Translations under genes and position numbers: made by a program
NCBI GenBank assembly: GCA_040900375.1
Contig: JBBDZC010000003.1
Span: forward strand, 64,586-128,585
Source of the DNA: Candidatus Anderseniibacteriota bacterium
Lineage (GTDB): Bacteria > Patescibacteriota > Andersenbacteria > UBA10190
Length of the DNA: 64,000 nucleotides
Direction: 5' to 3'
Notes under the pieces: generated by a model
Databases searched by the model: none
Told to the model about the DNA's origin: nothing
Seen by the model: the letters and a program-made list of their open reading frames with translations, nothing else
Part shown: piece after piece, positions 3,326-57,678 of the stretch
Layout of the letters: every line of letters begins with the position of its first letter
Position numbering within the stretch: position 1 is the first letter of the stretch

Positions 3326-5425
3326 CTAGGGTGTACTCAAGGCCGGATTTTGTAAAATTAATTTCTCTGGTTTGAGATTAGCAAAGCCAAGCGTAGTCTT
3401 ACCGGGAGGAACAGTAAAATGGACCTCGACTGCCACGGGTGTACCACTTCCTTGAGCCTGCCACATCACTTCTCCTGCTTGGGTAATCTGTAATTGACGA
3501 TGAGATTGGGATCCAAAACTAAAGGCCAGCGTTATTGAACGAGCTTGCGAGTGAGTATTAGTAACAATCACTTCTGCTGGCTGGGTAATTTCCGCAAAGG
3601 TGGCCTGACGGGCAGCATCATAAGCATAGCCCCATCCCTCTCCGCGCTGCATAAAAATCCCGTCACTTGGTGGTAAAGATGATTCAGGGGTCGTATACAA
3701 GACCGCATCATCGAAGGACTGCGGAACAAGTCTTAACTGTTGCTCTAAAAATTCACGGAGAATAGTTGCCTGATGAGGAGTAACAGAATCAAGATGGAGA
3801 ATAATCGCGGCCACCTTCTGGGCACGCAGCCCATCGGCTGCGGTCTCTACCATATCCTGGCCAAAGAACTCGCTCCGGCCTAAGGCCAGGTGATTAGTGC
3901 GGAGGTAGAGTAATTGGCGCAGTGCCGGCAGGGAACGAGCCTCATCCAAAACAGCTGGTGTCTCTCCCCGCTCTAGGGCGATGTTGCCCATAACTGTCTT
4001 GCCGTGGAAAAGGCTGGCATACAGCGCCCGCGAGGCGGTGACATAATTGGTGGCAGCGGGAATTTCAATGATTACTTCTCCTGGTAGCGATCGTACTGAT
4101 GCATACACAGGACTGACGGTCACGGCCTGCAATGGAATGGGCACGGCTAAAAACTCAAGAAGAATAGCGGCGGCTACGACTGCGACTAAGCTTTGTCGTT
4201 TAAATTGGGTCGCCACGACCAAGGCTACGAGCACGCTTAAAGATAAGCCCACCATTACACTAGCCCGGGCGACTGTTCTCACCGCGCTCACTACCGGCAA
4301 GCGATCAATCAAGGCAAATGGCAGTGGTAAAGGGGTAATAATGCCCATAAGGTGCAACCGGGGACCAAGACTTATAATGCCAAATACAAGGGCAGTAGTT
4401 ACCCAAAAATATTTTTGATTCCTTGGTAACTGCTGATGAAAAAACAAGAACAAGAGCAGCGGAACAATCCCCAGGAAATGGGTCGCTTCGGCAACGTTCC
4501 CCGTAAAATATTGCGCAAAGTAGGTGGCTACGAGTCCTCCCCAGAGAGGGTGAAATACCGCGGGAATAATATAGGCAAAAGGATCGGCAGAAAAACGTAT
4601 TGTCTGCTCTTGGCCTAATACCAGCGCTTCATCAGTAGAGGCCGCCAGTCGAATGGTTGGCCAGTTTGATACAAGCACCACAGTTACCGCCACTAACAAA
4701 ATAACCACTCCTCCCCAAAAACGAGCAGGAGATTGAGTGAGGTGGCGTGTAAAAGTTCTGCGGTACCACATTACAAAGATAACGGTAAATAGTCCTACCC
4801 ACAGCGCGTAGTGATGTTCAGTCCACACTTGAATCACCAGTAACAACGCTAACCAAAAACAATCGCGCCAGCGCCACCGATCGCGCAGACGATGGAGTAC
4901 CAGGAGGAAAAGCGGCAGCCACTGCAGTTGCAGCGCGCCAAAATGTCCAAGCGCATGAGCAAAATGGTAAGGCAAGAACATGTACACCATCCCCCCTAGG
5001 AGTGCGGCACTCTCTCCAAGCAAGGCTGGCGGCCGCGAGGGAAGTTGGTGAATTAAATATCGGCAGAGCGCGTACATGCCCCAGCCTGAAATGATAAACG
5101 ATAGCAGCCAGACAAGATTATAAGTTAGCGGCTGGCCAAATAATGGTTGTAGCCACAGCCATGGCCAAACGGAAAGATTAACCAGTCGCGGCGACCCCCC
5201 TCCCAAGAATTCCTGAATCACATATTCTCCCCACTCTCCAGCCGCCGCTCTATCTAGATGCTCGGCGGTCGCCATAAACCGCCACATCGTTTGCCAAGGG
5301 TCCCCACCGATACCTGCAACATGGGTAGTAAAACTAGCCGCAACAGGCCAAGTCATTATAAGACTTATGGCTGTATACAGCGCTAATGTTAGCGCATGGG
5401 TAAGAGCGTTTTTCATTGACACCAA
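3326..5425 (-). CDS. large polytopic membrane protein, putative GT-C fold glycosyltransferase ('GGDPW' loop subfamily) with C-terminal soluble domain
   Basis: 699 aa with more than 10 predicted hydrophobic helices in the N-terminal two-thirds. The first-loop motif 'GIGGDPWQTMWRF' is shared with ORF 46319..48715 ('SGGDPYNYLF'). The C-terminal region is hydrophilic. Family-level call only. Confidence 0.55.
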   Translation of the reverse strand: MVSMKNALTHALTLALYTAISLIMTWPVAASFTTHVAGIGGDPWQTMWRFMATAEHLDRAAAGEWGEYVIQEFLGGGSPRLVNLSVWPWLWLQPLFGQPLTYNLVWLLSFIISGWGMYALCRYLIHQLPSRPPALLGESAALLGGMVYMFLPYHFAHALGHFGALQLQWLPLFLLVLHRLRDRWRWRDCFWLALLLVIQVWTEHHYALWVGLFTVIFVMWYRRTFTRHLTQSPARFWGGVVILLVAVTVVLVSNWPTIRLAASTDEALVLGQEQTIRFSADPFAYIIPAVFHPLWGGLVATYFAQYFTGNVAEATHFLGIVPLLLFLFFHQQLPRNQKYFWVTTALVFGIISLGPRLHLMGIITPLPLPFALIDRLPVVSAVRTVARASVMVGLSLSVLVALVVATQFKRQSLVAVVAAAILLEFLAVPIPLQAVTVSPVYASVRSLPGEVIIEIPAATNYVTASRALYASLFHGKTVMGNIALERGETPAVLDEARSLPALRQLLYLRTNHLALGRSEFFGQDMVETAADGLRAQKVAAIILHLDSVTPHQATILREFLEQQLRLVPQSFDDAVLYTTPESSLPPSDGIFMQRGEGWGYAYDAARQATFAEITQPAEVIVTNTHSQARSITLAFSFGSQSHRQLQITQAGEVMWQAQGSGTPVAVEVHFTVPPGKTTLGFANLKPEKLILQNPALSTP

Positions 5426-5434
5426 TTCTACTCT

Positions 5435-6421
5435 TTAAGCTCGTGCACGAACAACTTTTAGAGATTGCCGTTCAGCTGCCACCATGATGTAAATAATTTC
5501 CTCTAGCGTATGCTTTGATTGAAAACCAATTGCCCGATAGACCTTATCGATATTAGGTTGGCGGCGTGCGGCATCATCAAATCCAGACTTATATGCTTCA
5601 GTGTAGGGAATATACTCTTTAACACTAGTACTTTCTGTGGCAGCAATTACGCGATCGGCCAGCTCGTTTATCGTCACCTGCTCTGGGTTGCCAACGTTAT
5701 ACACTTGTCCGACTGTCTTACTGCTCTCCATTAGGCGTTCAAGCGCCCACACGACATCTCGTACATATCCAAAACACCGTGACTGCTCACCATTACCATG
5801 GATAGTTAGCGGCTCATTGCGGAGTGCCTGACGAATAAACGTCGGTAGCACCATGCCGTATTTACTTGTTTGCCGCTCTCCAACCGTATTAAAAAGCCTC
5901 ACAATAGTTACAGGCAGTTGGTACTCGTGGTAATACGCGAATGCTAGATATTCATCAAGAGCCTTTGAGCAGGCATACGACCAACGGCTTTTAATAGTCT
6001 CGCCCATGCGTAAGTCATCATCCTCGCGTGAAGGCGTGTCGCTGCTTTTGCCGTACACCTCTGAGGTAGATGTAAGTAAAACTTTTTTTCCCGCTCGGCT
6101 CGCCACTTTGAGTACCGCTTCCGTCCCAGCAATGTTGTTATGGATAGAGGCCACTAAGTTGTCCATAATATGTTTGACACCAACAGAAGCTGCCAGATGA
6201 TAAACTTGCTCAACATTGTTCATCACCGGTTCGAGCATAGCCTCATCGCGCACATCACCTTCAATTATATGAAGGTGCTCCACGTGTAGATGGGCAAGAT
6301 TCTCTCTTGAGCCAGTCGAGAAGTTATCAACTACCCACACCTCGTGTCCTTTTTGAAGCAGCTGTTCCGTTACATGTGAGCCAATAAACCCAGCTCCGCC
6401 AGTGATAAGTATGCGTTTCAT
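5435..6421 (-). CDS. NAD-dependent sugar epimerase/dehydratase (extended SDR)
   Basis: 328 aa. It has the Rossmann motif 'ILITGGAGFIGSHV' and the catalytic YxxxK 'YACSKALDEY'. The start overlaps the stop of the downstream DUF2304-like gene as TAATG. Confidence 0.85.
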   Translation of the reverse strand: MKRILITGGAGFIGSHVTEQLLQKGHEVWVVDNFSTGSRENLAHLHVEHLHIIEGDVRDEAMLEPVMNNVEQVYHLAASVGVKHIMDNLVASIHNNIAGTEAVLKVASRAGKKVLLTSTSEVYGKSSDTPSREDDDLRMGETIKSRWSYACSKALDEYLAFAYYHEYQLPVTIVRLFNTVGERQTSKYGMVLPTFIRQALRNEPLTIHGNGEQSRCFGYVRDVVWALERLMESSKTVGQVYNVGNPEQVTINELADRVIAATESTSVKEYIPYTEAYKSGFDDAARRQPNIDKVYRAIGFQSKHTLEEIIYIMVAAERQSLKVVRARA

Positions 6422-6795
6422 TACTTCTTTTGCCGCTTTAATTCTTCCTTGAGTATAGCATGCTCTTGGGCAAGGTCGCGGATACGCTTATCATACCCGG
6501 TAAGCAGTATCGAAAAATGGATAGCTAGAAGGAAAAGGCCACCAATCAGTATCAGAAAGAGGGCGGTCGGCGAATAATCAATACCCGCCAAGTCGGCTAG
6601 TATCTCAAGCAGGCGAGCAAATATTGATAGAACAACAAGCGACAGCCCAAGCAAGATCCAAATAATAGAGTATCCCTCTTTTAAGTAACCACGGCGGATG
6701 AGATGCACGATAATGAGCAGTAATAATCCACTAAAGAGTATCGACAGTACTTGTACTCGTAATGGAATAACATCAAAAATGAGATAATTAATCAT
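6421..6795 (-). CDS. small membrane protein, DUF2304-like (GT2-associated)
   Basis: 124 aa with three hydrophobic helices and a charged C-terminal tail. It sits 2 nt downstream of a DPM1-like GT2. This pairing is recurrent in established annotations. Confidence 0.6.
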   Translation of the reverse strand: MINYLIFDVIPLRVQVLSILFSGLLLLIIVHLIRRGYLKEGYSIIWILLGLSLVVLSIFARLLEILADLAGIDYSPTALFLILIGGLFLLAIHFSILLTGYDKRIRDLAQEHAILKEELKRQKK

Positions 6796-6797
6796 AA

Positions 6798-7520
6798 TTA
6801 CCGTGAAGGTGCTTTAAAGCCGCTCATCACAATCGCAATGGCGTTTGAAATGAGAAAATATGCAGCTCGGAATCCGAGATCTTTCCCTAAAGAGGATTGA
6901 CCAGATAAACGATTAACCATTACGACCATTACTTCTTTTAATCGAAAACCATTGCGCAACATAGTTACAATTGATTCCGGTTCAGGGAAATCAGAAGGAT
7001 AGTGCCGAGCCACAAATTCTAAGGCTAATCGGTTATACGCCCGATAGCCAGAGGTGGAATCATACACTCGCTTATTTGTTACAATTCCAATTAGCCAAGC
7101 AAAAAGGCGTATGCCAAACAGGCGCAAAAAAGAAGCTTTATATCCAATGGGTTTCAAAAATCGGCTACCGATTACCATGTCCACCTCCCCATCCTCCAGC
7201 ACCCTCAGAAGGTCTGGAATGAATTGGGGGTCATGCTGGCCATCGGCATCCACCTGCATAGCAATTTCGTATCCATAGCGATACGCATATTTAAACCCAG
7301 TTTGCATAGCGCCTCCAATCCCTAAATTAATAGGCAAATCAAGTACCGGCACCCCTTTGAGCTCCGCCACCTTTCGCGTACCATCAGAAGAGGCATCGTT
7401 TACGACGACTAGTTGGGCAGCTGGAACAAAATAACGGATGTTATCAATAACTGTGCCTATTGAGCCCTCTTCGTTATAGGCAGGGATAATAACACAGACT
7501 TTTTTGTATTGTGTATTCAT
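6798..7520 (-). CDS. GT2 family polyprenyl-phosphate sugar synthase (DPM1/Ppm1-like, soluble catalytic domain)
   Basis: 240 aa. Motifs 'VIIPAYNEEGSIGTVI', 'VVNDASSDGT' and 'VDADGQHDP' match the dolichyl/polyprenyl-phosphate mannose synthase family. There is no C-terminal TM segment. Confidence 0.75.
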   Translation of the reverse strand: MNTQYKKVCVIIPAYNEEGSIGTVIDNIRYFVPAAQLVVVNDASSDGTRKVAELKGVPVLDLPINLGIGGAMQTGFKYAYRYGYEIAMQVDADGQHDPQFIPDLLRVLEDGEVDMVIGSRFLKPIGYKASFLRLFGIRLFAWLIGIVTNKRVYDSTSGYRAYNRLALEFVARHYPSDFPEPESIVTMLRNGFRLKEVMVVMVNRLSGQSSLGKDLGFRAAYFLISNAIAIVMSGFKAPSR

Positions 7521-7550
7521 GGCATCATACTAGGTTAAACAGCTAATTAT

Positions 7551-8714: not shown

Positions 8715-8743
8715 TTACTAAACAAAGACCTTCCTAGATAGAT

Positions 8744-10831: not shown

Positions 10832-10833
10832 GT

Positions 10834-12732: not shown

Positions 12733-12737
12733 AAAGT

Positions 12738-13469: not shown

Positions 13470-13475
13470 TAGCAG

Positions 13476-17790: not shown

Positions 17791-17849
17791 AGCTACTTAA
17801 GCAAGGCGGATAAATGGACTGCTCTGAAAATTGATATTCTTTTGATACG

Positions 17850-24266: not shown

Positions 24267-24269
24267 AGA

Positions 24270-24785: not shown

Positions 24786-24798
24786 CTCGTTATCCTAC

Positions 24799-42095: not shown

Positions 42096-42160
42096 GCTGC
42101 AAGGGTAAAGTTTACCCTGCATCTTTGCAAAATAGATCCCTTCGGTGCGAAGATCAGAGA

Positions 42161-48715: not shown

Positions 48716-48753
48716 TAGGATAGGAGCAACATTTTTAACAGTCACTAAAACTT

Positions 48754-49293: not shown

Positions 49294-49326
49294 GGAGTAT
49301 CAGTCGCCGGGCTCTCTATCTTCTAT

Positions 49327-50064
49327 CTACAGCTTCATTTTTTTAAAAATCCGTTCGGGAATCGCCGTAATGACGAGCATGATCCCCCACCAAAACCATG
49401 GCACATAGACCACCTCTCGCCGACTCCCAATTGCCCGATGAATTGCTTTCCCGACCACGTGAGGCTTAACCCATAACAATCCCTTCTTAAATTCCGCCGT
49501 CATGGGGCTGTCGACAAAGCCTGGTTTAATAGTAAGCACATGGACATTGGCTTTCGCTAAACGATTGCGCAAGCCCTGAAGAAATATAGTGAGCGCTCCT
49601 TTAGCCGTGCCATACACATAGTTACTTTGTCGCCCACGATCACCGGCCACCGAAGAAATCACCGCGATTGTCCCTGTTCGGGCTGGCTCAAAATGATTAG
49701 CAACCAGCGTGAGCAAGGAGACAACACTTAAAAAATTAGTGGCCAGTTCCCTTTCTGTTACCTCCCAGCTAGCTTCTGCCATCTTTTGCTTGGGCAACGT
49801 CCCATGAGCAATAAGGACAGTATCTATTCCCCCTAGTTGCTGCTCTGCCTGGCGAATGAGTTCTTTGTGTTCCTCAAAATTATTAAGATCAGCGGTAGCC
49901 GTAGCAACATACTGGGCGCCCCGCACACGTAAATCATTAGCCACTGCCTGCAATCGGTCTGCCGTCCGGTCGACTAGAAAAAAGGCGGCCCCTTCCGCGG
50001 CAAAGAGGCGAGCGGCCGCTGAAGCGATTGCAGAGGCGGCTCCAGTAATCAATATTCTGCGCAT
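49327..50064 (-). CDS. dprE2: decaprenylphospho-2'-keto-ribose reductase-like SDR (DprE2 ortholog)
   Basis: 245 aa. 'IAVISSVAGDRGRQSNYVYGTAKGALTIFLQGL' parallels Mtb DprE2 '[32 protein letters not shown]'. The C-terminus 'VVYVPWFWWGIMLVITAIPERIFKKMKL' parallels '[28 protein letters not shown]'. Confidence 0.75.
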   Translation of the reverse strand: MRRILITGAASAIASAAARLFAAEGAAFFLVDRTADRLQAVANDLRVRGAQYVATATADLNNFEEHKELIRQAEQQLGGIDTVLIAHGTLPKQKMAEASWEVTERELATNFLSVVSLLTLVANHFEPARTGTIAVISSVAGDRGRQSNYVYGTAKGALTIFLQGLRNRLAKANVHVLTIKPGFVDSPMTAEFKKGLLWVKPHVVGKAIHRAIGSRREVVYVPWFWWGIMLVITAIPERIFKKMKL

Positions 50065-50093
50065 GTCTTTAAAACTACCGTAATCGTGACCGT

Positions 50094-51404: not shown

Positions 51405-52845
51405 AGTAATAACTTGCTCCTAAAACAACCAGCATGGCACAAGCCGCCACGAGGTAACTGACAGTATCGCGCATAGCAAAGATCAAGGGATCATCTTCCA
51501 GTACTCCGCGGTGGGCTAAAAACCATATACGACTAATCCAATAAAGCTGTAGCGGCACTAAAAGCCATAACAAAATCGGCGTTTGGTAGAGAGAATAGAT
51601 TTCCTCGCTGCTGATATAGAGGGCTAAAATAACAGCCGCCAAGTAGCCGCTGGCGATGCCGATTTGTGCCAGAGGGATACTGTCGCTTACAGTATATCCC
51701 CGGCCATGAGCATTGCTGGCTGTCGCCTCGAGGTGCTTGAGTTCGCTAAATCGCTTCACAACTGCCAGGCTCAAAAACAAGAACATACCAAAAGCTGTCA
51801 GCCATGATGAAACCAGCACGAGGGTGGCCGCCGCACCCGCGTACAAGCGGATCGTGTAGAGCACAGCGAGCAGAAAGACATCGACTAAAATAATCTGTTT
51901 CAGTAAAAAAGAATACAATAACGTCAACCCGAGATAGAGTGTCAGCAACCAGACAAACGATGCGGGCAACAAGGTGCTCACACCAAAACTGGCAAGTAGC
52001 AAGAGAGGCACAGCGAAAAATCCTATACTTAAAGACAAGGTCCCCGCGGCAAAGGGGCGGTATCGCTTGCGGTGGTGCCGGCGATCCGCCTCTAAATCCA
52101 GGAGATCATTGAGAATGTAGACACTCGACGAAGCCAGACAAAAAGCGAGAAAGGCCAAGAGTGCATTATAGACTAGCGTAAGCTCTGTTACTTTGTGCGC
52201 CGCCATCAGCGGTACAAAAATAAGGATATTCTTTGGCCACTGGTGCCATCGCAGTGCCTGCAGCCATCTAGTCACACGCTTGCTTCTGTTCCCAAAGATT
52301 GAGGTCACATAGGTGGCCTGCCGGGCTCTGGTAATAAGCCAGGGATTACTGCTCACCACAATTCCCTCACCTGCCTTCGCCCAAACTGCTAAATCAGATG
52401 GGGCATTACCTGCGTAGGCAAATTTCCGCTCGCCAAATTTTTTGACCAAGGCTTGAGCTTTATGGCTTCCTTTAAAATTCAGGGTGGCTGATGAGGCAAC
52501 CACCCCCGTAAAGATCCCGAGGTGTCGCGCCACTTGCTGGGCAACCACGACCGAAGACGCCGTGGTCAGAAAAAGTGGCCGCCGGGTGGCGTGTTGTTGC
52601 CGCAAGTATGTCAATAAATCTGTGTTATAGGGCAAATGCTTAACCGACAACGCTACCCGTGTCGCCACCTGGTGTTTACAGTAGGCCCGACCCTTACAAA
52701 GCCACCATCCAAGGGCACCGAGGTAAAGCGGATTGCGTTTAAGCAAGGCAACAACTAGCTCAATAAAAGTATCAGTCCGGACTAGTGTACCATCCATATC
52801 AACACACAATGGCAGGCCAGCAGCAAAAGAATACTTGGGCTTCAT
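51391..52845 (-). CDS. HAD-phosphatase domain fused to UbiA-family polyprenyl-phosphate phosphoribosyltransferase (Rv3806c-like)
   Basis: Start set at Met 52845 ('MKPKYSFAAGLPLCVDMDGTLV'). The N-terminal ~200 aa carry HAD motifs I 'DMDGT' and IV 'GNAPSD'. The C-terminal ~290 aa are polytopic with the UbiA 'NDLLDLEADRRH' Asp-rich motif. Confidence 0.7.
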   Translation of the reverse strand: MKPKYSFAAGLPLCVDMDGTLVRTDTFIELVVALLKRNPLYLGALGWWLCKGRAYCKHQVATRVALSVKHLPYNTDLLTYLRQQHATRRPLFLTTASSVVVAQQVARHLGIFTGVVASSATLNFKGSHKAQALVKKFGERKFAYAGNAPSDLAVWAKAGEGIVVSSNPWLITRARQATYVTSIFGNRSKRVTRWLQALRWHQWPKNILIFVPLMAAHKVTELTLVYNALLAFLAFCLASSSVYILNDLLDLEADRRHHRKRYRPFAAGTLSLSIGFFAVPLLLLASFGVSTLLPASFVWLLTLYLGLTLLYSFLLKQIILVDVFLLAVLYTIRLYAGAAATLVLVSSWLTAFGMFLFLSLAVVKRFSELKHLEATASNAHGRGYTVSDSIPLAQIGIASGYLAAVILALYISSEEIYSLYQTPILLWLLVPLQLYWISRIWFLAHRGVLEDDPLIFAMRDTVSYLVAACAMLVVLGASYYYGAA

Positions 52846-52897
52846 GTAGGATATAGTTACTCGACCGATCACTATACTCTTAGGGGCTATAGGACCG

Positions 52898-54979
52898 TCA
52901 ATCCTCGCTCGGTGGCAGACGATAAGCAATATCTCCGGACTGGCTAAATTGCTCCATTCGCTCGCCGGTTCTAAGCTCTCGCCGTCGCCAGAACATGTCG
53001 CCGGGTAATGTGTCAGTCGTCATAAATTTTACCGTTATTGCATCTCCCGCAATTGAGTCAGGGCTACTCAACGCCACATAGTAGGTTTTATTGTCGTTAT
53101 CAGTAAGCGGCGCAAAGGCAAAGCGGTGCCAGTTACTATCGGCAATCTCGCGCGCATTGACACGCACTGTCCGCAGATCCTCCGTCGCGTTAACGTCCTC
53201 ACGAATATGTAAAATAACATCATGGGTATTGCGTCGGCTACTAAAAGTAGCCAGCCCGATCTCAATGCTATTCCAGTTCTTCGGCACTTGCGGCAGGCTC
53301 TGACCTACCTCATGACCCTTCACTAGTTCTCCCGTGTGACGCGTAAAATAAGCCAAACCCACTTGATTGTAAATCCAGACGTATGGCTTGCCACCGATAT
53401 AGACGACATGTTCCGGTTCCCGGTCGCGCAGTTCTTCCAGGACCGAGGTGGCAATATCATCTTGTTCTCGCCCGCCCATGTTGCGGTACACCACCACAAA
53501 ACCGACGCGTTCATCATGACGAGAGCTTAAGCTTAACGTCGTGCCCTTAAAGAAGGTTCTCATTACTCCTGGATACCAGCTGGCAATATAAAGATTAGCA
53601 TCAATTAAAGGATGATTATTTAACCAGTGGGCCGCTTGATCTAAACCTTCTCCCCATCCCTCTTGGCTACGATGACGAACATTAAAGATCTGATTTTCGT
53701 ACGCAATCGCGTATGGTCGCCAGAGGAGGGGTTGTAACACTACGGCCATCACGACCACGCTGGCCACGACTGGTACCAGAAGTTTAGGCCCGTGCCGCTC
53801 CCCGCGGGGCGCGAGTCGAGACCACGCTATCGCCAGGACCGCCCCGGCTATCACCGGCAGTACCACTAAAGTTGGCAGGGCGTAGCGATCACCCTTTTTA
53901 GCCACAAAGGTGATCAGCGCTAAGAAACCAAGAGCGTAGAGCAGTAAAATAACAATGGGGCTTTTAGTAATCATTTGGAGATTAACAAGCCTCTGCCGTG
54001 GCGATACCACCGCTAGTAGCAGCGCGATTGGTAAGCCTAGGCTTACCAAGAGACTAAGGGGCATTGCTCGGGCAGCCACTGTTCTTAAGTAAAATGTCTG
54101 GGGGTTAATAGGATCAGTTGAGGCAGCCAGCGCAATGTGTTCATCAGTTGCAATCGCGATCGCATCGTCTTTATAAGATGTCGTCAACCCTTCGGTATAA
54201 TTTTCATTCTGGAGCTTTGTCGGCGACCAGAAGGCCGGGCAGAGCACTAAAAATGTAACCACTGCCACCAGCAGCCAAACTACAAGCGCCGTGGCGATCT
54301 GGGGCAATCTTTTTCGGGAATTAAAACCTTGCCAGAGCACTAGTAAGCTGCCAAATGCTACCAACCAGAGCGCGGGCAAAAGCTTGGTAGCTAGAGCAAA
54401 ACCTAGCATTATTCCTGATAACAGTAATCCCCAGTGTCGGCCGCCCGCATCTTTAAGGTAGGCCAGCAACGCCACCGTCGCCCCAAGCAGCGAGAGAGCC
54501 AGCAGCGCATCAAGATGGATAATTTGGCTTAAGCCTACAGTATAGGGATCAGCAGCCAAAAAAAGGCCTCCGAGCCAACCGGGCTTCAGTCCCAAGAGCC
54601 ACGTCAACCAATATGTGATGAAGCCAACCAGCAAGGCCGTCATCAAGGTCACTGGCAGCTTTGCTACTTCATAAAAATCTTTTACCCGGCTGTCGTCGAG
54701 ATGAACATCTACTCCCTGCCACTTTGCCTGGGCCGTAATCCCGCCACCAGCCAACCACATGAGTGTGGTCCCAGGATGAGTCGTCATAAAGGTATTACTG
54801 AAATCGCCCTGCAGCACCTCGTGCCAATACCATGAGCTGCGTAAGACCCACCGGTCTTCATCAGCTGTCATTATATCCCCAAGCCCCCACAAACGCACCA
54901 CCGCAGCGACTAGTAAAACACTTATAACTATGAACACACGAGGGAAACGAGCGCCAATACGCCACGATAAATTAGACAT
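52898..54979 (-). CDS. GT-C glycosyltransferase, PMT/ArnT-like ('MTADEDRW' motif) with C-terminal soluble module
   Basis: 693 aa. 'LGDIMTADEDRWVLRSSWYW', 'KKGDRYALP' and 'GGKPYVWIYNQ', then the module 'WNSIEIGLATFSSRRNTHDVILHIREDV...HRFAFAPLTDNDNKTYYVAL'. Confidence 0.65.
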   Translation of the reverse strand: MSNLSWRIGARFPRVFIVISVLLVAAVVRLWGLGDIMTADEDRWVLRSSWYWHEVLQGDFSNTFMTTHPGTTLMWLAGGGITAQAKWQGVDVHLDDSRVKDFYEVAKLPVTLMTALLVGFITYWLTWLLGLKPGWLGGLFLAADPYTVGLSQIIHLDALLALSLLGATVALLAYLKDAGGRHWGLLLSGIMLGFALATKLLPALWLVAFGSLLVLWQGFNSRKRLPQIATALVVWLLVAVVTFLVLCPAFWSPTKLQNENYTEGLTTSYKDDAIAIATDEHIALAASTDPINPQTFYLRTVAARAMPLSLLVSLGLPIALLLAVVSPRQRLVNLQMITKSPIVILLLYALGFLALITFVAKKGDRYALPTLVVLPVIAGAVLAIAWSRLAPRGERHGPKLLVPVVASVVVMAVVLQPLLWRPYAIAYENQIFNVRHRSQEGWGEGLDQAAHWLNNHPLIDANLYIASWYPGVMRTFFKGTTLSLSSRHDERVGFVVVYRNMGGREQDDIATSVLEELRDREPEHVVYIGGKPYVWIYNQVGLAYFTRHTGELVKGHEVGQSLPQVPKNWNSIEIGLATFSSRRNTHDVILHIREDVNATEDLRTVRVNAREIADSNWHRFAFAPLTDNDNKTYYVALSSPDSIAGDAITVKFMTTDTLPGDMFWRRRELRTGERMEQFSQSGDIAYRLPPSED

Positions 54980-54984
54980 GAGGA

Positions 54985-57678
54985 CTAGGGACTATTCTTC
55001 CGTCGGTAAAAGGTCAAGGTATTTGAACCATTTTCAATTCCCTTGACTGACTCAAAATCACGCTCCAAACCGGCCTCAATTTCCGAGTACTCCATCAGGA
55101 ATGAGAAGCTGGTCTGACTATCAAGCAAGAACCACTGCGTGTGGCGATACGCCTCAAGCATGGTTTCCACTGGTGGTAGAAAAGTATTAAGGCGCTCCGG
55201 ATCTTTTCGGGTAAATTCGTAGGCGTACCAACGCGGGTGAGAAATATCAAGCGCCGTGTGGTGACCAGAAAGATAGGCAACCAGTGACGAGCCCGTGAAA
55301 ATTGGTTGATCAAGAGGAATATTATCACGTGCCCACACGCCCGCTTCATAGGCTGCTCGTTGTGTAAAAGTACCCGTGTGCTCATAGAGAAAAGTAATGT
55401 AATTCGATAAAAACATGCTCCACAGCAAGACCAGGGCCGTGACACTCGATATGATCTTAGTAACAAATACTGTCCAGGGATAGCCGTTTTCCAACTGCGA
55501 GAGAGTACTCATGATCCGCTGCCACATCAGAAGAGCTCCGGCACCCGCAACGATTGCCAGTGGGGGCAAAAACTCATTCAAATAGTTAGCGTGAAATTTA
55601 ATCCAGTTACTGTAGAAAAATATCAAACCGCCGAGCCATACCGGCAGCAACAGGATAACGCTCACCGACACCGGGCTGTTCGCAGACACACTCAAAAACG
55701 GCGGTGTGGTCACCTTCTTCAAGCTACCAATAATATTAGGCAAGGCGTGGTGCAAAGGTTGCGTGCTGCGTTTAATAGTACTTTTCTCCTCGAAAACAAA
55801 CTGTTCTGACTGCGGCCGGGGCCAGCAAGCAACCAGCACCAACATTCCCCCCATCAAGTACCACAGAAGTGTCATACCATAGAACATAAAGGCACTGCCT
55901 TCATATTCAAAAAAGAATTGCCAACACCACCAAAAGGCAGCCAAGGGGAAAATCCAGACTATTTTCGGGACAACATGCTCAAGCAATGCCCGGGTAAAAG
56001 GCGAGGGCCGTTCTCGCAGTGCCCGGCGCACCAAGTTTCGGGAAAACGTTTCGAGCAACAAACCCCAGCCCAATAAGGAGAGAAAAATAAGCGGTAAGGA
56101 TTCACGGAAGAAAGGTGTCATTCCCCGGAGCGAGTAACTACGAGTTTTCTCGGCTTCACTCGGATCGAGGCTAATAGTTCCGTCAGTCGCTGAATTTACT
56201 CCCAACGCCTCCCACAAACCTTCTAGACCATAGACTTGGTAAGCCGACCACAAGAAGGCTCCCACGACTAACATGAAGCCAATGCCAACCAAGAAACAGT
56301 AGTGCAGCCGCTGGCGCCAAGAAACACCATGGACCGCAATAAAAAGCAAGGGCAAAACGCCCAGCGCCAGAATACTCTTACGGGATATCACGCCTAAACC
56401 AAGCAGCATGCCGGCACCAATAAGCTTGAGGTTAGAGGGCCCATGAGCAGACAAGGAGGGAGAAGCAGAGAATGCCGGCTGACGGACTGCCTGCCACAAT
56501 ACCGCTAACCCCATAATGCCAAAAAAGAGAGCCAGTGGTTGAGTGTGGGCATAGACATTGGCGAGCACGGCAGCGCCAAATAACGACCACACCGCCGCCG
56601 CCATAATGCCTGTCAAGCGATTTTTAAGTTGGCACCCCAGACTATAGATAGGAAAAATTGTTAAAGCCCCGATGACAATCGAAGACAGTCGGCCAGCGAT
56701 AATGGTGTCTCCCAGTAAAAATTGCCAGAGCGCCATCCAGGCAATTACCAAAGGCGCTTTAACATAGCCATCCCCTCCGGCCAGTATTCCTTGGCGTAAA
56801 CTGCGCGCGTCATAGAGGTAGTTGCCCTCATCTTCAGTCACTGGTAGTTCACGCGCATAGAGTATCCGCAAACCGACTGCGACAACAAACAAAAATATGA
56901 GCAGGAATATGACCGCTCGCCGTGAAAGGGCCGCCGGCGTGCCTTCAGATTCACTCCGCCGGCTCATGGCAATCAACAGGAGTAAAAACAATAACCCAGG
57001 CACCATAGTTTTGCCTACAATCTCGTAATGGCTGCGCTGATCATCCCAGTTCACAATAAAGGAGTAGACTGCCTGGCGGGCGGCGTTGATAACTGCTACC
57101 CGCAAGGGCACTGTGTGGTAGCTCGCAAAGCCCAGATCCTGGGTAGGTTTGCCAGAAGGAGCAAGATTTTGTGGCGCCGTAACATCCCTGCCCCGCCCGC
57201 GGACAATAAAGGCGGTCCCCAAATGATAGGGATTGCGACTATCTACATCAACTGTTACAGCATTCCCCGGTACACTACTAGGTGAAACAACAAAGAAGAA
57301 GAAATTCTTACCTTCACTATCCGCAATCGGTTCAAATTCAAAGCGATAAAATTGATTGTCACCTAAAAGATGAGGCGCAATCGCCACGCGTCGTAAATCT
57401 TCACGCGCTTCGAGAGACTCACGGAGATGAAAATGGATCGGTTGCGTATTGGCGCGATTGGAATAGGTCGCAAACATTACCGCCACACCTGACAGATAAT
57501 TGTGTTCGGATTTGAATGTCTGCCCGATTAAAACATCTCCGGTAAGTTCGCCTGCATTCGTAGTATAGCTCGCTTGCTGAACCGTCCGCTCGCGAACGAC
57601 TATGAACTGTGCTGCCAAGGTAAAGATCGCTAGAAGGCAGACGGCAGCCAGCGCCATGATTTTTGTTGCCGGTGTCAT
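54985..57678 (-). CDS. large GT-C glycosyltransferase with N-terminal soluble module
   Basis: 897 aa. An N-terminal TM is followed by the module 'IGQTFKSEHNYLSGVAVMFATYSNRANTQPIHFHLRE...YRFEFEPIADSEGKNFFFFVV'. Then comes the loop motif 'ELPVTEDEGNYLYDA' and more than 12 helices. Confidence 0.6.
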   Translation of the reverse strand: MTPATKIMALAAVCLLAIFTLAAQFIVVRERTVQQASYTTNAGELTGDVLIGQTFKSEHNYLSGVAVMFATYSNRANTQPIHFHLRESLEAREDLRRVAIAPHLLGDNQFYRFEFEPIADSEGKNFFFFVVSPSSVPGNAVTVDVDSRNPYHLGTAFIVRGRGRDVTAPQNLAPSGKPTQDLGFASYHTVPLRVAVINAARQAVYSFIVNWDDQRSHYEIVGKTMVPGLLFLLLLIAMSRRSESEGTPAALSRRAVIFLLIFLFVVAVGLRILYARELPVTEDEGNYLYDARSLRQGILAGGDGYVKAPLVIAWMALWQFLLGDTIIAGRLSSIVIGALTIFPIYSLGCQLKNRLTGIMAAAVWSLFGAAVLANVYAHTQPLALFFGIMGLAVLWQAVRQPAFSASPSLSAHGPSNLKLIGAGMLLGLGVISRKSILALGVLPLLFIAVHGVSWRQRLHYCFLVGIGFMLVVGAFLWSAYQVYGLEGLWEALGVNSATDGTISLDPSEAEKTRSYSLRGMTPFFRESLPLIFLSLLGWGLLLETFSRNLVRRALRERPSPFTRALLEHVVPKIVWIFPLAAFWWCWQFFFEYEGSAFMFYGMTLLWYLMGGMLVLVACWPRPQSEQFVFEEKSTIKRSTQPLHHALPNIIGSLKKVTTPPFLSVSANSPVSVSVILLLPVWLGGLIFFYSNWIKFHANYLNEFLPPLAIVAGAGALLMWQRIMSTLSQLENGYPWTVFVTKIISSVTALVLLWSMFLSNYITFLYEHTGTFTQRAAYEAGVWARDNIPLDQPIFTGSSLVAYLSGHHTALDISHPRWYAYEFTRKDPERLNTFLPPVETMLEAYRHTQWFLLDSQTSFSFLMEYSEIEAGLERDFESVKGIENGSNTLTFYRRKNSP

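What the first reader, a model, noticed from the sequence alone, without database searches (positions are those of the whole stretch)
3326..57678. Expansion of 12 GT-C-type polytopic glycosyltransferase genes in 64 kb, alongside a Wzx flippase and two polyprenyl-P sugar synthases
Seen in sequence: there are twelve ORFs of 480-969 aa with 10 or more hydrophobic helices. They are 3326..5425, 8744..10831, 27795..29237, 31304..34213, 34205..36319, 37015..38598, 38591..40048, 42161..44452, 44449..46344, 46319..48715, 52898..54979 and 54985..57678. At least three sequence subfamilies are present. Four to five proteins share a PMT/ArnT-like loop 'L/MTADE(K/D)xW' or 'EDEG', together with 'KKGDRY(V/A/I)LP' and a C-terminal 'YVWIY'. 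Three share the YfhO-like 'WNPYTCGG(A/T)AGLADPEF' or 'LPLWNNEFGFGHP' motifs. Two share 'GGDP(W/Y)'. Established knowledge: GT-C enzymes use polyprenyl-phosphate-linked sugars on the outer face of the membrane. PMT homologs O-mannosylate proteins using Ppm1-made polyprenyl-P-mannose. YfhO enzymes glycosylate teichoic acids with C55-P-sugar from a CsbB-type GT2. Both kinds of GT2 donor synthase are present here (6798..7520 and 59948..60922), plus the DPA-like module and a Wzx flippase (20582..21892). Inference: the locus probably encodes a multi-step extracytoplasmic glycan elaboration or a protein O-glycosylation system of unusual complexity. The paralog expansion suggests distinct linkage or acceptor specificities.
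Basis: partly seen in the sequence, partly recalled or inferred. Interest (0 to 1): 0.7.

Follow-up and report, generated by a model that had tools for sequence, protein, structure and literature searches.

The report
Twelve membrane glycosyltransferases in one CPR locus
A 64-kb stretch from a tiny-genome groundwater-type bacterium (Candidatus Andersenbacteria) encodes twelve different membrane-embedded sugar-transferring enzymes plus three pathways that make their lipid-linked sugar donors, which points to an unusually elaborate sugar coat built on the outside of the cell.

Summary
All twelve ORFs are open, polytopic, and carry the quoted motifs.

**Evidence that each is a GT-C-fold glycosyltransferase**
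- Three pass Pfam thresholds: YfhO for 31304, PMT_2 for 34205 and 37015.
- Four reach YfhO or PMT_2 below threshold, backed by BLAST or profile links: 38552, 41924, 44449, 52898.
- 3326 links to the YfhO-like group by profile only (98%).
- 54985 and 46319 are PMT_2-like through their homologues.
- 8744 and 27795 have no family hit. Their confident AlphaFold models match only GT-C structures.

**Context**
- The source is a Candidatus Andersenbacteria (CPR) MAG.
- Most of the array is syntenic in at least 12 related MAGs, so it is an old lineage trait. Only one pair is a recent tandem duplicate.
- There are three lipid-sugar donor modules, not two:
  - a PpgS/GacI-like GT2 with a DUF2304 partner and an epimerase;
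  - a GtrB/ArnC-like GT2;
  - a HAD-UbiA, DprE1 and DprE2 module for a pentofuranose, probably Araf.
- The island extends beyond the window and includes a 13th GT-C.

**New points**
- Five enzymes from three subfamilies share an accessory domain of about 130 aa.
- A conserved pilin-like gene sits inside the cluster.

**Reading**
The most likely function is extracytoplasmic assembly or decoration of an envelope glycopolymer. Protein O-glycosylation is the main rival. No literature on this was found.

The parts
3326..5425 (-). C1: GT-C, distant YfhO-like, EL1 motif GGD42PW. It is co-directional and contiguous with the PpgS-like, DUF2304 and epimerase genes.
   Evidence: There is no Pfam or NCBIfam hit. 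hhalign gives 98.4% to the 44449 family, 97.6% to 41924 and 92% to 31304. GGDPW aligns to the conserved 'SDWD' of 44449. There are six orthologues at 41-43% identity.
8744..10831 (+). C2: GT-C of a CPR-restricted family with no Pfam model. It has four extra N-terminal helices, a conserved LPDLD167PYYW loop, and a C-terminal domain resembling the AglB C-terminal domain.
27795..29237 (+). C3: a small (480 aa) GT-C with no Pfam model and the EL1 motif PIGGD40A.
   Evidence: All 41 homologues lack Pfam domains. AF2 gives pLDDT 91.7 and pTM 0.91. Foldseek top 25 hits are all GT-C, TMq 0.47-0.63. hhalign gives 93% to the 31304 (YfhO) family.
31304..34213 (+). C4: YfhO-family GT-C (969 aa) with the shared accessory domain at aa 550-688.
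   Evidence: Pfam YfhO scores 51.1 bits against a cutoff of 28.5. The domain HMM gives E 1.5e-32.
34205..36319 (-). C5: PMT_2-type GT-C with TAD50E51, KKGDRY, and the C-terminal shared domain at aa 549-691.
   Evidence: Pfam PMT_2 32.2 bits, PMT 26 bits and DUF6212 28 bits are all above their cutoffs. The domain HMM gives 3.3e-42.
36541..36972 (-). A pilin-like small protein and a candidate acceptor or accessory. It has an N-terminal TM helix, an ARRE-RD helix and a C-terminal CGG..C.
   Evidence: A weak GspG pseudopilin N-terminal match, E 0.0019. Homologues at 29-49% identity lie inside the GT-C cluster in L027, L011, L006, L004 and L018.
37015..38598 (+). C6: PMT_2-type GT-C with TAD33E34, KKGDRY and YVWIY.
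   Evidence: Pfam PMT_2 35.2 bits and PMT 25.8 bits, both above cutoff. It is 28% identical to C5, E 2e-42.
38552..40048 (+). C7: a divergent PMT_2-like GT-C (the start may be the ATG at 38591) with a conserved LLGDEG loop.
   Evidence: PMT_2 scores 20.6 bits, below the 26.1 cutoff. hhalign gives 91.8% to the 52898 family and 89% to 44449. There are 16 orthologues. Motif conservation is shown.
42161..44452 (+). C8: YfhO-like GT-C and tandem paralogue of C9, with an N-terminal extension of about 150 aa.
   Evidence: It is 48% identical to C9, E 4e-159. hhalign gives 99% to the 31304 family. The YfhO C-terminal hit is 20.3 bits, below cutoff. A gene call uses the 42161 start.
44449..46344 (+). 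C9: YfhO-like GT-C with conserved WG-SD87WD and WNPY motifs.
   Evidence: hhalign gives 99.6% to the 31304 family. 78 related loci were found; the closest 37 are in CPR MAGs, with more distant ones in Omnitrophota, Zixibacteria and DPANN archaea. The Asp is conserved across 66 sequences.
46319..48715 (+). C10: GT-C of a small family, with the shared domain at the N-terminus (aa 55-184) and GGD254PY in EL1.
   Evidence: It has no Pfam hit itself. Only 150 representatives exist in 1.84 billion proteins. Of its 41 distant homologues, 16 hit PMT_2 (best 1.6e-8), 11 hit PMT and 2 hit GT87. hhalign gives 92.7% to the 54985 family over 376 columns, with D254 aligned to D283.
48754..49293 (+). An inorganic pyrophosphatase immediately downstream of, and co-directional with, C8-C9-C10, next to the PRPP-consuming module.
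   Evidence: Pfam Pyrophosphatase 8e-57. A role in pulling the PRPP transfer forward is inference only.
49327..50064 (-). A DprE2-like SDR reductase.
   Evidence: NCBIfam DprE2 scores 158 bits, below the 250 cutoff. PRK07102 SDR scores 323 bits, above its cutoff.
50094..51404 (-). A DprE1-like FAD oxidase.
   Evidence: The NCBIfam DprE1 model scores 330.9 bits with E 1.5e-98, full length but below the 500-bit equivalog cutoff. Pfam FAD_binding_4 also hits.
51391..52929 (-). A HAD phosphatase fused to a UbiA-type polyprenyl-phosphate phosphoribosyltransferase.
   Evidence: NF006088 scores 585 bits against a cutoff of 351. DPPRS models give 1e-35 to 1e-41. Pfam HAD and UbiA both hit. The domain order (N-terminal PRP, C-terminal PPPRS) matches C. 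youngae ORF15 (PMC11127046).
52898..54979 (-). C11: PMT_2-type GT-C with TAD40E41, KKGDRY, YVWIY, and the C-terminal shared domain at aa 548-693.
   Evidence: It is 28% identical to C5 over 698 aa, E 1e-57. PMT_2 scores 22.5 bits, below cutoff. The domain HMM gives 2e-48.
54985..57678 (-). C12: a large PMT_2-like GT-C with the N-terminal shared domain (aa 40-171), an invariant T-x-D283-E-G-N-Y, and GGDG.
   Evidence: It has no Pfam hit itself. Most orthologues (41-58% identity) carry PF13231, and NCBI names several of them 'glycosyltransferase family 39 protein'. Invariant columns are listed.
59948..60922 (-). A GtrB/ArnC/CsbB-type GT2 with two C-terminal TM helices, acting as a polyprenyl-P-sugar synthase.
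   Evidence: NCBIfam ArnC-type 3.3e-45 and PgfS 4.6e-43, both full length but below equivalog cutoffs. The hydrophobic stretch is at aa 235-298. C12-epimerase-GT4-GtrB is syntenic in 3 of the fetched loci (L001, L018, L002, the last cut at its end), and the epimerase-GT4-GtrB tail in several more.
5435..7520 (-). Donor module 1: a PpgS/GacI-like soluble GT2 (6798..7520), a DUF2304 small membrane partner (6421..6795) and an NAD-dependent sugar epimerase (5435..6421).
   Evidence: The PpgS model scores 93 bits (best family, below the equivalog cutoff). DUF2304 scores 80 bits. Epimerase 1e-57. The gene set matches Mtb PpgS/Rv3632/Rv3634c (PMC9671496) and S. pyogenes GacI/GacJ (PMC8035078).
20582..21892 (-). 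A Wzx/MOP-family flippase.
   Evidence: Pfam Polysacc_synt 1e-17 and Polysacc_synt_3 1.4e-16. It has 11 or more hydrophobic segments.

Best explanation
The window is most of a glycan-assembly island of at least 82 kb from a Candidatus Andersenbacteria (CPR/Patescibacteria) genome.

**Shown.** All twelve large polytopic proteins are GT-C-fold glycosyltransferases. They belong to two broad clans: PMT_2/ArnT-like (C5, C6, C7, C10, C11, C12) and YfhO-like (C1, C3, C4, C8, C9). One orphan (C2) has an STT3/ALG-like architecture. Each keeps a conserved Asp, or Asp-Glu, in the loop just after a transmembrane helix. That is where GT-C enzymes hold their catalytic acid.

**Shown at family level.** Three cytoplasmic modules charge polyprenyl phosphate with single sugars:
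1. a PpgS/GacI-like GT2 with its DUF2304 partner and a 4-epimerase-type enzyme;
2. a GtrB/ArnC-like GT2;
3. a HAD-UbiA phosphoribosyltransferase with DprE1- and DprE2-like enzymes, which would give polyprenyl-P-ribofuranose and then polyprenyl-P-arabinofuranose.

**Inferred.**
- About a dozen Leloir GT4/GT2 enzymes in and around the window build a lipid-linked backbone from nucleotide sugars. Rhamnose, heptose and other sugar-nucleotide pathways lie in or just beyond the window.
- A Wzx-type flippase carries lipid-linked intermediates across the membrane.
- The GT-C enzymes then extend, branch and decorate a cell-envelope glycopolymer on the outer face. Each contributes a different linkage or acceptor specificity.
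- Five of them hold on to a common acceptor through a shared accessory domain of about 130 aa.

The logic is that of Gram-positive multi-component transmembrane glycosylation, scaled up toward the complexity of the mycobacterial arabinogalactan/LAM machinery.
For: **GT-C identity**
- Pfam YfhO or PMT_2 passes above threshold for C4, C5 and C6. C7, C8, C9 and C11 hit below threshold.
- BLAST and hhalign networks tie C1, C3, C7 and C10 to these clans.
- C12 orthologues carry PF13231.
- 16 of 41 distant C10 homologues hit PMT_2.

**Catalytic loop**
- The motifs are conserved in orthologues and aligned to each other by hhalign.

**Donor modules**
-. The gene sets match published systems: PMC11127046, PMC9671496 and PMC8035078.

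**Contiguous co-directional gene runs consistent with operons**
- 3326-7520 on the minus strand holds a GT-C with donor module 1.
- 49327-60922 on the minus strand holds the DprE2, DprE1 and UbiA genes, C11, C12, an epimerase, a GT4 and the GtrB-like gene.

**Polysaccharide context**
- Nine GT4-type transferases (seven with both GT4 domains, two with only the C-terminal GT-B domain), one further GT2, Wzx, methyltransferases and two AsnB amidotransferases lie in the window.
- Upstream lie more GT4, GT9 and GT2 genes, a deacetylase, a weak TagF-like hit and a 13th (YfhO) GT-C.
- Downstream lie heptose and dTDP-rhamnose pathways.

**Shared accessory domain**
- It occurs in five enzymes of three subfamilies. 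This parallels the carbohydrate-binding modules of EmbC, AftD and GT136 ORF12 (PMC11127046).

**Conservation**
- Most of the array is syntenic in at least 12 Andersenbacteria MAGs.
Against: - No activity, donor or acceptor has been tested. The donor sugars are inferred from sub-equivalog family matches: DprE1 331 bits against a 500 cutoff, DprE2 158 against 250, PpgS 93 against 370.
- No priming phosphoglycosyltransferase, Wzy polymerase or LCP ligase was found in the window, so the backbone pathway is incomplete as seen.
- No GtrA or MATE flippase was found. The Wzx role for monophosphate-linked sugars rests on analogy with GacK.
- The DprE1/DprE2 genes are absent from the 10-kb flanks of related loci. 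Araf may therefore be specific to this genome and is not part of the conserved core.
- The fold of the shared domain is unknown: no PDB sequence match, and only faint DUF6212, DUF4082 and lectin hits.
- Ten of the twelve were classified by sequence or profile, not by structure.
- A conserved pilin-like gene inside the cluster fits a protein acceptor equally well.
Confidence: 0.6

Rival explanations
1. The GT-C enzymes, or a large share of them, O-glycosylate surface proteins rather than a polysaccharide. Candidate targets are pilins, pilin-like proteins or an S-layer protein. Examples from known systems:
- eukaryotic and actinobacterial PMTs;
- P. aeruginosa TfpW, which puts D-Araf oligomers on pilin using a DprE1/DprE2/UbiA-derived donor;
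- the S. mutans Pgf system, which combines a GtrB-like PgfS, an epimerase and YfhO-like PgfM1/M2.
For: - A pilin-like 143-aa gene (36541..36972) lies between two PMT_2-type genes and is conserved inside the cluster in five other genomes.
- The GtrB-like enzyme scores 4.6e-43 on the PgfS model, and C9 has a faint PgfM2 hit.
- PMT_2 is the protein mannosyltransferase family.
- TfpW is a GT-C that uses the D-Araf pathway on pilin (bioRxiv 10.1101/2020.04.19.049825; PMC11127046).
Against: - The island carries about a dozen Leloir transferases, Wzx, rhamnose and heptose pathways and a weak TagF-like hit. That is typical of polymer synthesis.
- The small protein lacks a canonical prepilin G-FxxxE motif, and its GspG match is below threshold.
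- PMT_2 and YfhO families also include many polysaccharide- or lipid-modifying enzymes, such as ArnT, GacL, GtlB and CsdD (PMC8035078).
- The two readings are not mutually exclusive.
Confidence: 0.27
2. Several of the twelve are GT-C-fold proteins that no longer act as monosaccharide transferases. They could serve as en-bloc oligosaccharyltransferases or ligases, as polymerases, or as non-catalytic scaffold or acceptor-binding subunits. The true number of distinct glycosyl transfers would then be much smaller than twelve.
For: - No Wzy or ligase was found in the window, so some protein must fill these roles.
- The review PMC8035078 speculates that small GT-Cs may need separate acceptor-binding partners.
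Against: - None of the twelve has a WWD(Y)G motif.
- Every family keeps its loop Asp conserved across orthologues at 40-58% identity, which argues for retained catalysis.
- Three donor modules for lipid-monophosphate sugars are present.
Confidence: 0.1
3. Most of the twelve are not glycosyltransferases at all but transporters or other polytopic membrane proteins. On this view the shared motifs are coincidental.
For: Five of the twelve have no Pfam or NCBIfam hit on their own. Profile searches against PDB sequences found nothing.
Against: - Both orphans that were modelled match only GT-C structures, with transporters at E above 0.1.
- Homologues of the others pass PMT_2 thresholds.
- hhalign probabilities are 92-99.6%.
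- The motifs are conserved in orthologues.
Confidence: 0.03

Closest known systems
Multi-component (three-component) transmembrane glycosylation systems of Gram-positive bacteria: CsbB/GtcA/YfhO, GtlA/GtlB, GacI/GacJ/GacK/GacL, CsdAB/CD/EF (PMC8035078)
   Same: - A GT-A/GT2 enzyme makes a C55-P-sugar.
- A flippase carries it across the membrane; it is Wzx-type in the Gac system.
- A PMT_2- or YfhO-type GT-C transfers the sugar outside the membrane.
- The pairing of a soluble GT2 with a DUF2304-type small membrane protein matches GacI/GacJ.
   Different: - Known organisms have about 1-3 GT-A/GT-C pairs scattered in the genome, for example three in B. subtilis and three in L. lactis.
- Here 12 GT-Cs, 13 counting the flank, sit in one island with only three donor modules.
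- Several of the GT-Cs belong to families that have no Pfam model.
Three-component pentofuranose glycosylation: C. youngae ORF15/ORF14/ORF12 (GT136), with DprE1/E2 variants for Araf (Kelly et al. 2024, PMC11127046)
   Same: - The HAD(PRP)-UbiA(PPPRS) fusion has the same domain order.
- DprE1- and DprE2-like genes lie adjacent, and GT-C genes lie next to them.
- Some of the GT-Cs carry an accessory extracytoplasmic domain, like the ORF12 CBM.
   Different: - No MATE flippase is present; only a Wzx lies about 28 kb away.
- The neighbouring GT-Cs are PMT_2-like and YfhO-like. GT136 membership was not tested.
- The organism is a CPR bacterium and the system is not an O-antigen side-chain system.
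- DprE1/E2 are not part of the conserved Andersenbacteria core.
Mycobacterial/corynebacterial arabinogalactan-LAM machinery: DPPRS-DprE1/E2, Emb/Aft/Mpt/PimE GT-Cs, and PpgS-Rv3632-Rv3779 for GalN modification
   Same: - Many different GT-Cs use polyprenyl-P-Araf, -Man or -HexNAc donors to build a wall polysaccharide outside the membrane.
- The gene sets are equivalent: PpgS with a DUF2304 partner and an epimerase, and UbiA with DprE1 and DprE2.
- CBM-like accessory domains sit on some of the transferases.
   Different: - None of the twelve hit Emb/Aft Pfam families; they derive from PMT_2/YfhO-like scaffolds.
- The phosphatase is a fused HAD, not Rv3807c-type.
- The host has a small CPR genome, with no evidence of a mycomembrane.
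P. aeruginosa group IV pilin arabinosylation by TfpW, and the S. mutans Pgf protein glycosylation system
   Same: - A GT-C enzyme works with a D-Araf lipid-donor pathway (TfpW), or with a GtrB-like PgfS plus an epimerase and YfhO-like PgfM enzymes.
- A pilin-like gene is embedded among the transferases here.
   Different: - There is no canonical prepilin motif.
- There are far more transferases, plus a large set of Leloir GTs.
- No similarity to TfpW was tested.
Oligosaccharyltransferases STT3/PglB/AglB (GT66)
   Different: - The defining WWDYG motif is absent.
- TM-scores are only about 0.4-0.6.

Membership tests
GT-C fold glycosyltransferase superfamily | Polytopic membrane domain of about 7-13 or more TM helices | tested here: met
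   Hydropathy gives about 9-19 helix equivalents in each of the twelve. The AF2 models of C2 and C3 are helical bundles.
GT-C fold glycosyltransferase superfamily | Conserved acidic residue(s) in the first extracytoplasmic loop after a TM helix | tested here: met
   **Motifs by protein**
- C1: GGD42P
- C2: D165-x-D167
- C3: GGD40
- C4: LDD
- C5: AD50E51
- C6: AD33E34
- C7: GDEG
- C8 and C9: SDWD
- C10: GGD254P
- C11: AD40E41
- C12: D283E284

The motifs are conserved in orthologues and mutually aligned by hhalign, except C4, whose LDD is supported only by the hhalign alignment to C9 and is not conserved at the 80% level among its 10 orthologues. The extracytoplasmic side is inferred from topology, not tested.
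GT-C fold glycosyltransferase superfamily | Structural similarity to solved GT-C enzymes | tested here: met
   [not shown]
GT-C fold glycosyltransferase superfamily | Use of polyprenyl-phosphate-linked sugar donors | not testable with these tools
   Only context is available: three donor-synthase modules lie in the same island.
PMT_2 / GT39-GT83-like (PF13231) | Score at or above the Pfam gathering threshold (26.1 bits) | tested here: inconclusive
   - Met by C5 (32.2 bits) and C6 (35.2 bits).
- Below threshold for C7 (20.6) and C11 (22.5).
- No hit for C10 or C12.
- C11 is 28% identical to C5.
- Most C12 orthologues and 16 of 41 C10 homologues pass.
YfhO (PF09586) | Score at or above the Pfam gathering threshold (28.5 bits) | tested here: inconclusive
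   - Met by C4 (51.1 bits).
- C8 (20.3) and C9 (15.7) hit only the C-terminal end, below threshold.
- C1 and C3 have no hit.
- All four are linked to C4 by hhalign at 92-99.6%.
Oligosaccharyltransferase STT3/PglB/AglB (GT66) | WWDYG motif in the C-terminal extracytoplasmic domain | tested here: not met
   No WW[DE] or W[WY]D[YFW]G motif occurs in any of the twelve. The only NCBIfam archaeo_STT3 hit is for C12, at 17 bits against a cutoff of 450.
Three-component pentofuranose system (PMC11127046) | Polyprenyl-phosphate phosphoribosyltransferase with a PRP phosphatase | tested here: met
   51391..52929 has an N-terminal HAD and a C-terminal UbiA. NF006088 scores 585 bits against a 351 cutoff, and DPPRS models give 1e-35 to 1e-41.
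Three-component pentofuranose system (PMC11127046) | DprE1/DprE2 epimerase pair for the Araf variant | tested here: inconclusive
   The DprE1 model scores 331 bits (cutoff 500) and the DprE2 model 158 bits (cutoff 250). Both are full-length, adjacent and best-family matches, but below equivalog level.
Three-component pentofuranose system (PMC11127046) | Dedicated MATE (or SMR/GtrA) flippase and a GT136 GT-C | tested here: not met
   No MATE, SMR or GtrA family was detected among the window ORFs. Only a Wzx/Polysacc_synt protein is present. No GT136 model was available, so that part was not tested.
PpgS/Rv3632 (GacI/GacJ-type) polyprenyl-P-HexNAc synthase pair | Soluble GT2 adjacent to a DUF2304 small membrane protein | tested here: met
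   6798..7520 is a GT2 whose best NCBIfam match is PpgS (93 bits, below the 370 equivalog cutoff). 6421..6795 is DUF2304 at 80.4 bits against a cutoff of 25.5. The sugar identity is unknown.
Emb/Aft arabinosyltransferases | Sequence membership in the Emb/Aft Pfam families | tested here: not met
   No such family appears in any Pfam scan of the twelve at E up to 0.01. Only fold-level similarity of C2 and C3 to AftA, AftB and AftD was seen.

The most novel reading that the evidence does not exclude
Andersenbacteria are CPR bacteria with small genomes. On this reading they build a complex, D-arabinofuranose-containing envelope heteropolysaccharide entirely outside the membrane. The enzyme set rivals the mycobacterial arabinogalactan/LAM machinery in complexity but evolved independently from PMT_2/YfhO-type scaffolds. 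It includes at least four GT-C families with no existing Pfam or CAZy model (C1, C2, C3, C10) and a previously undescribed acceptor-binding module shared across subfamilies.
Probability: 0.3. Interest if true: 0.75.

Novelty: new variant of a known kind. Interest (0 to 1): 0.55.

Why it matters
CPR/Patescibacteria make up a large share of bacterial diversity, yet almost nothing is known about the chemistry of their envelope. That surface mediates their episymbiotic attachment and their interactions with phages.

This locus puts at least 82 kb into envelope glycosylation, and CPR genomes are typically around 1 Mb (general knowledge, not measured here). That suggests the surface glycan is central to the lifestyle of the lineage.

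It would offer:
- several uncharacterised GT-C families, two already with confident models;
- a candidate new acceptor-binding domain;
- a candidate D-Araf pathway outside Actinobacteria and Proteobacteria, which would make DprE1-type chemistry and anti-arabinan probes testable on CPR enrichments.

If the enzymes turn out to be ordinary side-chain glycosylases, the finding remains a useful catalogue but not a conceptual advance.

Tried and rejected
- NCBIfam scan of ten of the twelve gave only one faint archaeo_STT3 hit.
- Profile searches of the C12, C10 and shared-domain alignments against PDB sequences gave nothing meaningful.
- An exact-protein look-up of AsnB 10834 found it not on record. 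Other window proteins did locate the source contigs.
- I tested whether 'GGDP' defines a subfamily and rejected it. C1 and C10 show no similarity to each other (hhalign probability 1.1%) and fall in different clans. The motif is the common first-loop Asp.
- I tested whether the 239-aa membrane protein 30440..31159 carries the shared domain. It does not.
- I tested the OST reading of C2 and C3. There is no WWDYG motif.
- I looked for a priming transferase, Wzy, LCP or GtrA/MATE flippase among the window ORFs and found none.
- I looked for DprE1/E2 in related loci and found none within the 10-kb flanks.
- Rfam and tRNA scans of the window found nothing.
- Literature searches linking CPR, Patescibacteria or Andersenbacteria with GT-C, YfhO, DprE1 or arabinan returned no relevant paper.
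- As a control for clustering, loci around YfhO-like genes in other phyla also hold about 2.7 large polytopic ORFs per 20 kb, against 4.4-4.5 here. GT-C clustering is therefore not unique to this lineage, only stronger.

Full report

All twelve ORFs are present as open frames at the stated coordinates. Two have possible longer upstream starts (38552 TTG, 41924 ATG). The longer 41924 form would overlap the divergent AsnB gene by about 200 bp.

Every quoted motif is present. A crude hydropathy scan gives 9-19 helix equivalents per protein. Only 14 ORFs of at least 440 aa in the window are this hydrophobic: the twelve, plus Wzx and the UbiA enzyme.

**2. Where is it from?**

Window proteins are 100% identical to 'hypothetical proteins' WEA04_00380 and WEA04_00550 of a Candidatus Andersenbacteria MAG, on a contig of 191,595 bp. 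The lineage is Patescibacteria group, Parcubacteria group, Candidatus Anderseniibacteriota.

A scan of one genome per species with C9 (44449..46344) returned 78 loci. The 37 closest, at 37-56% identity, all come from Andersenbacteria-type CPR MAGs, often with several paralogues per genome. More distant relatives (24-30%) occur in Omnitrophota, Zixibacteria, Ignavibacteria and DPANN archaea.

**3. Are they GT-C enzymes?**

| Protein | Coordinates | Evidence |
|---|---|---|
| C4 | 31304 | Pfam YfhO, 51 bits, above threshold |
| C5 | 34205 | Pfam PMT_2 and PMT, above threshold |
| C6 | 37015 | Pfam PMT_2 and PMT, above threshold |
| C7 | 38552 | PMT_2 below threshold; hhalign 91.8% to C11 |
| C11 | 52898 | PMT_2 below threshold; 28% identical to C5, E 1e-57 |
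| C8, C9 | 41924, 44449 | YfhO C-terminus below threshold; 48% identical to each other; hhalign 99.0% and 99.6% to C4 |
| C1 | 3326 | No Pfam hit; hhalign 98.4% to C9, 97.6% to C8, 92% to C4 |
| C3 | 27795 | No Pfam hit; hhalign 93% to C4; AF2 model matches GT-C only |
| C10 | 46319 | No Pfam hit; hhalign 92.7% to C12 over 376 columns; 16 of 41 distant homologues hit PMT_2 |
| C12 | 54985 | No Pfam hit itself; most of its roughly 120 orthologues carry PF13231 |
| C2 | 8744 | No Pfam hit; AF2 model matches GT-C only |

Further detail on the harder cases:
- NCBI names several C12 orthologues 'glycosyltransferase family 39 protein', and JGI names some 'L-Ara4N transferase-like'.
- C10 belongs to a small family, with 150 representatives among 1.84 billion proteins. 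Of its 41 distant homologues, 16 hit PMT_2 (best 1.6e-8), 11 hit PMT and 2 hit GT87.
- C2 and C3 belong to families in which no member has a Pfam domain.
- The C2 model has pLDDT 86 and pTM 0.87. The C3 model has pLDDT 91.7 and pTM 0.91.
- Foldseek against the PDB returns only GT-C enzymes in the top 24 (C2) and top 25 (C3). These are STT3, PglB, AglB, DPY19, ArnT, AftA, AftD, ALG9, Emb and PimE. Transporters appear only at E above 0.1.

All twelve are GT-C-fold proteins, with evidence of graded strength.

**4. A unifying catalytic loop**

- hhalign aligns GGD254PY of C10 onto T-E-D283-E-G-N-Y of C12.
- It aligns GGD42PW of C1 onto WG-SD87WD of C9 and LDD of C4.
- C3 has PIGGD40A, C2 has LPD165LD167PYYW, and C7 has LLGDEG.
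- C5, C6 and C11 have TADE.

These residues are invariant or at least 80% conserved among orthologues at 40-58% identity. The exception is C4, whose LDD rests only on the hhalign alignment and is not conserved at that level. Each lies a few residues after a hydrophobic helix. That is the position of the catalytic acid in the first extracytoplasmic loop of GT-C enzymes (established knowledge; PMC11127046).

The 'WNPY...' motif of the YfhO-like group is a second element about 25 residues further on. 'GGDP' is therefore not a subfamily marker. C1 and C10 have no detectable similarity to each other (hhalign probability 1.1%).

**5. Donor modules**

There are three, not two.

1. 6798..7520 is a soluble GT2 whose best NCBIfam model is PpgS, the polyprenyl-P-GalNAc synthase (93 bits, below equivalog).
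   - Next to it lie a DUF2304 small membrane protein (6421..6795, 80 bits) and an NAD-dependent epimerase (5435..6421). GT-C C1 continues the same run on that strand.
   - This is the gene set of M. tuberculosis PpgS/Rv3632/Rv3634c, which feeds the GT-C Rv3779 (PMC9671496). It is also the set of S. pyogenes GacI/GacJ, which feeds GacL (PMC8035078).
2. 59948..60922 is a GtrB/ArnC/PgfS-type GT2 with two C-terminal TM helices.
   - It sits in a contiguous minus-strand block: GtrB-like, GT4, epimerase, C12, C11.
3. 51391..52929 is a HAD-UbiA fusion. NF006088 scores 585 bits, above its cutoff, and there are DPPRS hits.
   - It is followed by DprE1-like (331 bits) and DprE2-like (158 bits) genes.
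   - The domain order is that of C. youngae ORF15 (PRP at the N-terminus, PPPRS at the C-terminus). Kelly et al. associate DprE1/E2 homologues with Araf-containing glycans (PMC11127046).
   - An inorganic pyrophosphatase ends the convergent C8-C9-C10 operon right beside this module.

**6. Wider context**

The window also holds:
- nine GT4-type transferases (seven with both GT4 domains, two with only the C-terminal GT-B domain) and one further GT2;
- a Wzx flippase;
- three methyltransferases (two SAM-type and one FkbM-type);
- two AsnB-type amidotransferases;
- several epimerases or dehydratases, and RmlA;
- an unusual sugar-activation block at 23205-27686.

Walking out on the source contigs shows the island continues:
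- Upstream lie further GT4 genes (one cut by the window start), a GT9 and a GT2, a polysaccharide deacetylase, a weak TagF-like hit, and a 13th GT-C, a 756-aa YfhO.
- Downstream lie a heptose pathway and RmlB/C/D. The housekeeping genes LepA and G6PD follow about 8.8 kb past the window end.

No priming phosphoglycosyltransferase, Wzy, LCP, or GtrA/MATE flippase was seen in the window.

**7. Conservation**

- Orthologues of ten of the twelve lie in syntenic order, C4-C5-(C6)-C7-(AsnB)-C10-C9-C11-C12-epimerase-GT4-GtrB-RmlA, in at least 12 related MAGs.
- A second block, GT4-GT4-GT4-C1, is conserved in six; in two of these (L028, L033) a PpgS-like gene, a GT4 and C2 follow.
- The array is thus an old, lineage-wide trait. 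Only C8 and C9 look like a recent tandem duplication.
- The DprE1/E2 genes were not found in the flanks of the related loci. The UbiA homologue there sits near another C9-like paralogue. The arabinose branch may be specific to this genome.
- As a control, loci around YfhO-like genes in other phyla also carry about 2.7 large polytopic ORFs per 20 kb, against 4.4-4.5 here. Clustering of GT-Cs is not unique, but this is at the top of the range.
- Characterised Gram-positives have about three GT-A/GT-C pairs per genome (PMC8035078).

**8.

(a) A shared accessory domain.
- A domain of about 130-145 aa is shared by five enzymes of three subfamilies. It is C-terminal in C5 and C11, internal in C4, and N-terminal, between the first and second TM helices, in C10 and C12.
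- hhalign probabilities are 88-99.8%. An HMM built from the domain hits exactly these five window ORFs, at E 1e-30 to 1e-48.
- Pfam calls it DUF6212 in C5. DUF4082 and galectin hits are faint, and no solved structure matches by sequence.
- By analogy with the CBMs of EmbC, AftD and GT136 ORF12, I infer it is a common acceptor-binding module. This is untested.

(b) A pilin-like gene.
- A 143-aa protein (36541..36972) has an N-terminal TM helix, a pilin-like alpha-1 segment and a C-terminal Cys pair.
- It sits between C5 and C6 and recurs inside the cluster in five other genomes.

**9. Mechanism and rivals**

Best reading (0.6): nucleotide-sugar pathways and Leloir GTs make a lipid-linked backbone. 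Wzx exports lipid-linked intermediates. Three modules supply polyprenyl-P-monosaccharides. The 12-13 GT-Cs then extend, branch and decorate an envelope glycopolymer outside the membrane.

The main rival (0.27, not exclusive) is O-glycosylation of pilin-like or S-layer proteins, as with TfpW (bioRxiv 10.1101/2020.04.19.049825), Pgf or PMT.

**10. Novelty and verdict**

The kind of system is known. New here are:
- its scale and density in a CPR genome;
- several GT-C families without models;
- the cross-subfamily accessory domain;
- a DPA-like pathway in this lineage.

I found no paper describing any of this. I rate it a new variant of a known kind, with interest 0.55.

Noticed in passing
window 34205-36319 (aa 549-691), 52898-54979 (aa 548-693), 31304-34213 (aa 550-688), 54985-57678 (aa 40-171), 46319-48715 (aa 55-184): A domain of about 130-145 aa is shared by five GT-Cs of three different subfamilies, at the N-terminal, internal or C-terminal position. 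Pfam calls it DUF6212 in one protein. DUF4082 and galectin hits are faint, and there is no PDB sequence match. It is possibly a common acceptor-binding module.
   Followed up: partly
window 36541-36972 (-): A 143-aa pilin-like protein (TM helix, ARRE-RD helix, C-terminal CGG..C) lies between two PMT_2-type genes. Homologues lie inside the GT-C cluster in L027, L011, L006, L004 and L018. The GspG N-terminal match is weak (E 0.0019) and there is no canonical prepilin motif.
   Followed up: partly
L079 (upstream of window start) 12282-21143: The island continues beyond the window start. It holds more GT4 genes, a GT9, a GT2, a polysaccharide deacetylase, a weak Glyphos_transf (TagF-like) hit, and a 13th GT-C, a 756-aa protein with Pfam YfhO. 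Window bases 1-1038 are the 3' part of a GT4 gene cut by the window edge.
   Followed up: partly
L080 (downstream of window end) 51-8829: A heptose-nucleotide pathway (SIS isomerase, PfkB kinase, GmhB-like phosphatase, cytidylyl/adenylyl-transferase-like) and RmlB/C/D follow the window. LepA and G6PD then mark the end of the island, about 8.8 kb past base 64000.
   Followed up: no
window 10834-12732 (+) and 40218-42122 (-): Two asparagine-synthase-type glutamine amidotransferases are embedded among the transferases. In glycan loci these usually amidate uronic acids. One of them is syntenic in related MAGs.
   Followed up: no
window 23205-27686 (-): An unusual sugar-activation block. It holds a 353-aa protein with only a faint tagatose-bisphosphate-aldolase-like hit, a HAD phosphatase, a shikimate-dehydrogenase-like enzyme, a nucleotidyltransferase fused to an APH-type kinase domain, and a cupin. 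The product is unknown.
   Followed up: no
window 48754-49293 (+): An inorganic pyrophosphatase ends the C8-C9-C10 operon and abuts the PRPP-using HAD-UbiA/DprE module. It might pull the phosphoribosyl transfer forward, or it may simply be the housekeeping enzyme.
   Followed up: no
[not shown]
   Followed up: partly
window 30440-31159 (-) and 61080-61484 (-): Two small membrane proteins have no family hit. One is 239 aa, with TM helices at both ends, and is conserved next to C3 and C4 in L034. The other is 134 aa, lies between RmlA and the GtrB-like gene, and is also called as a gene on the source contig.
   Followed up: no
L014, L020, L023, L025: In related Andersenbacteria genomes the HAD-UbiA homologue (39-41% identity) sits near another C9-like GT-C and ORFs of about 1,100-1,200 aa of unknown function. 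No DprE1/DprE2 lies within 10 kb. Those genomes may use ribofuranose rather than arabinofuranose.
   Followed up: partly
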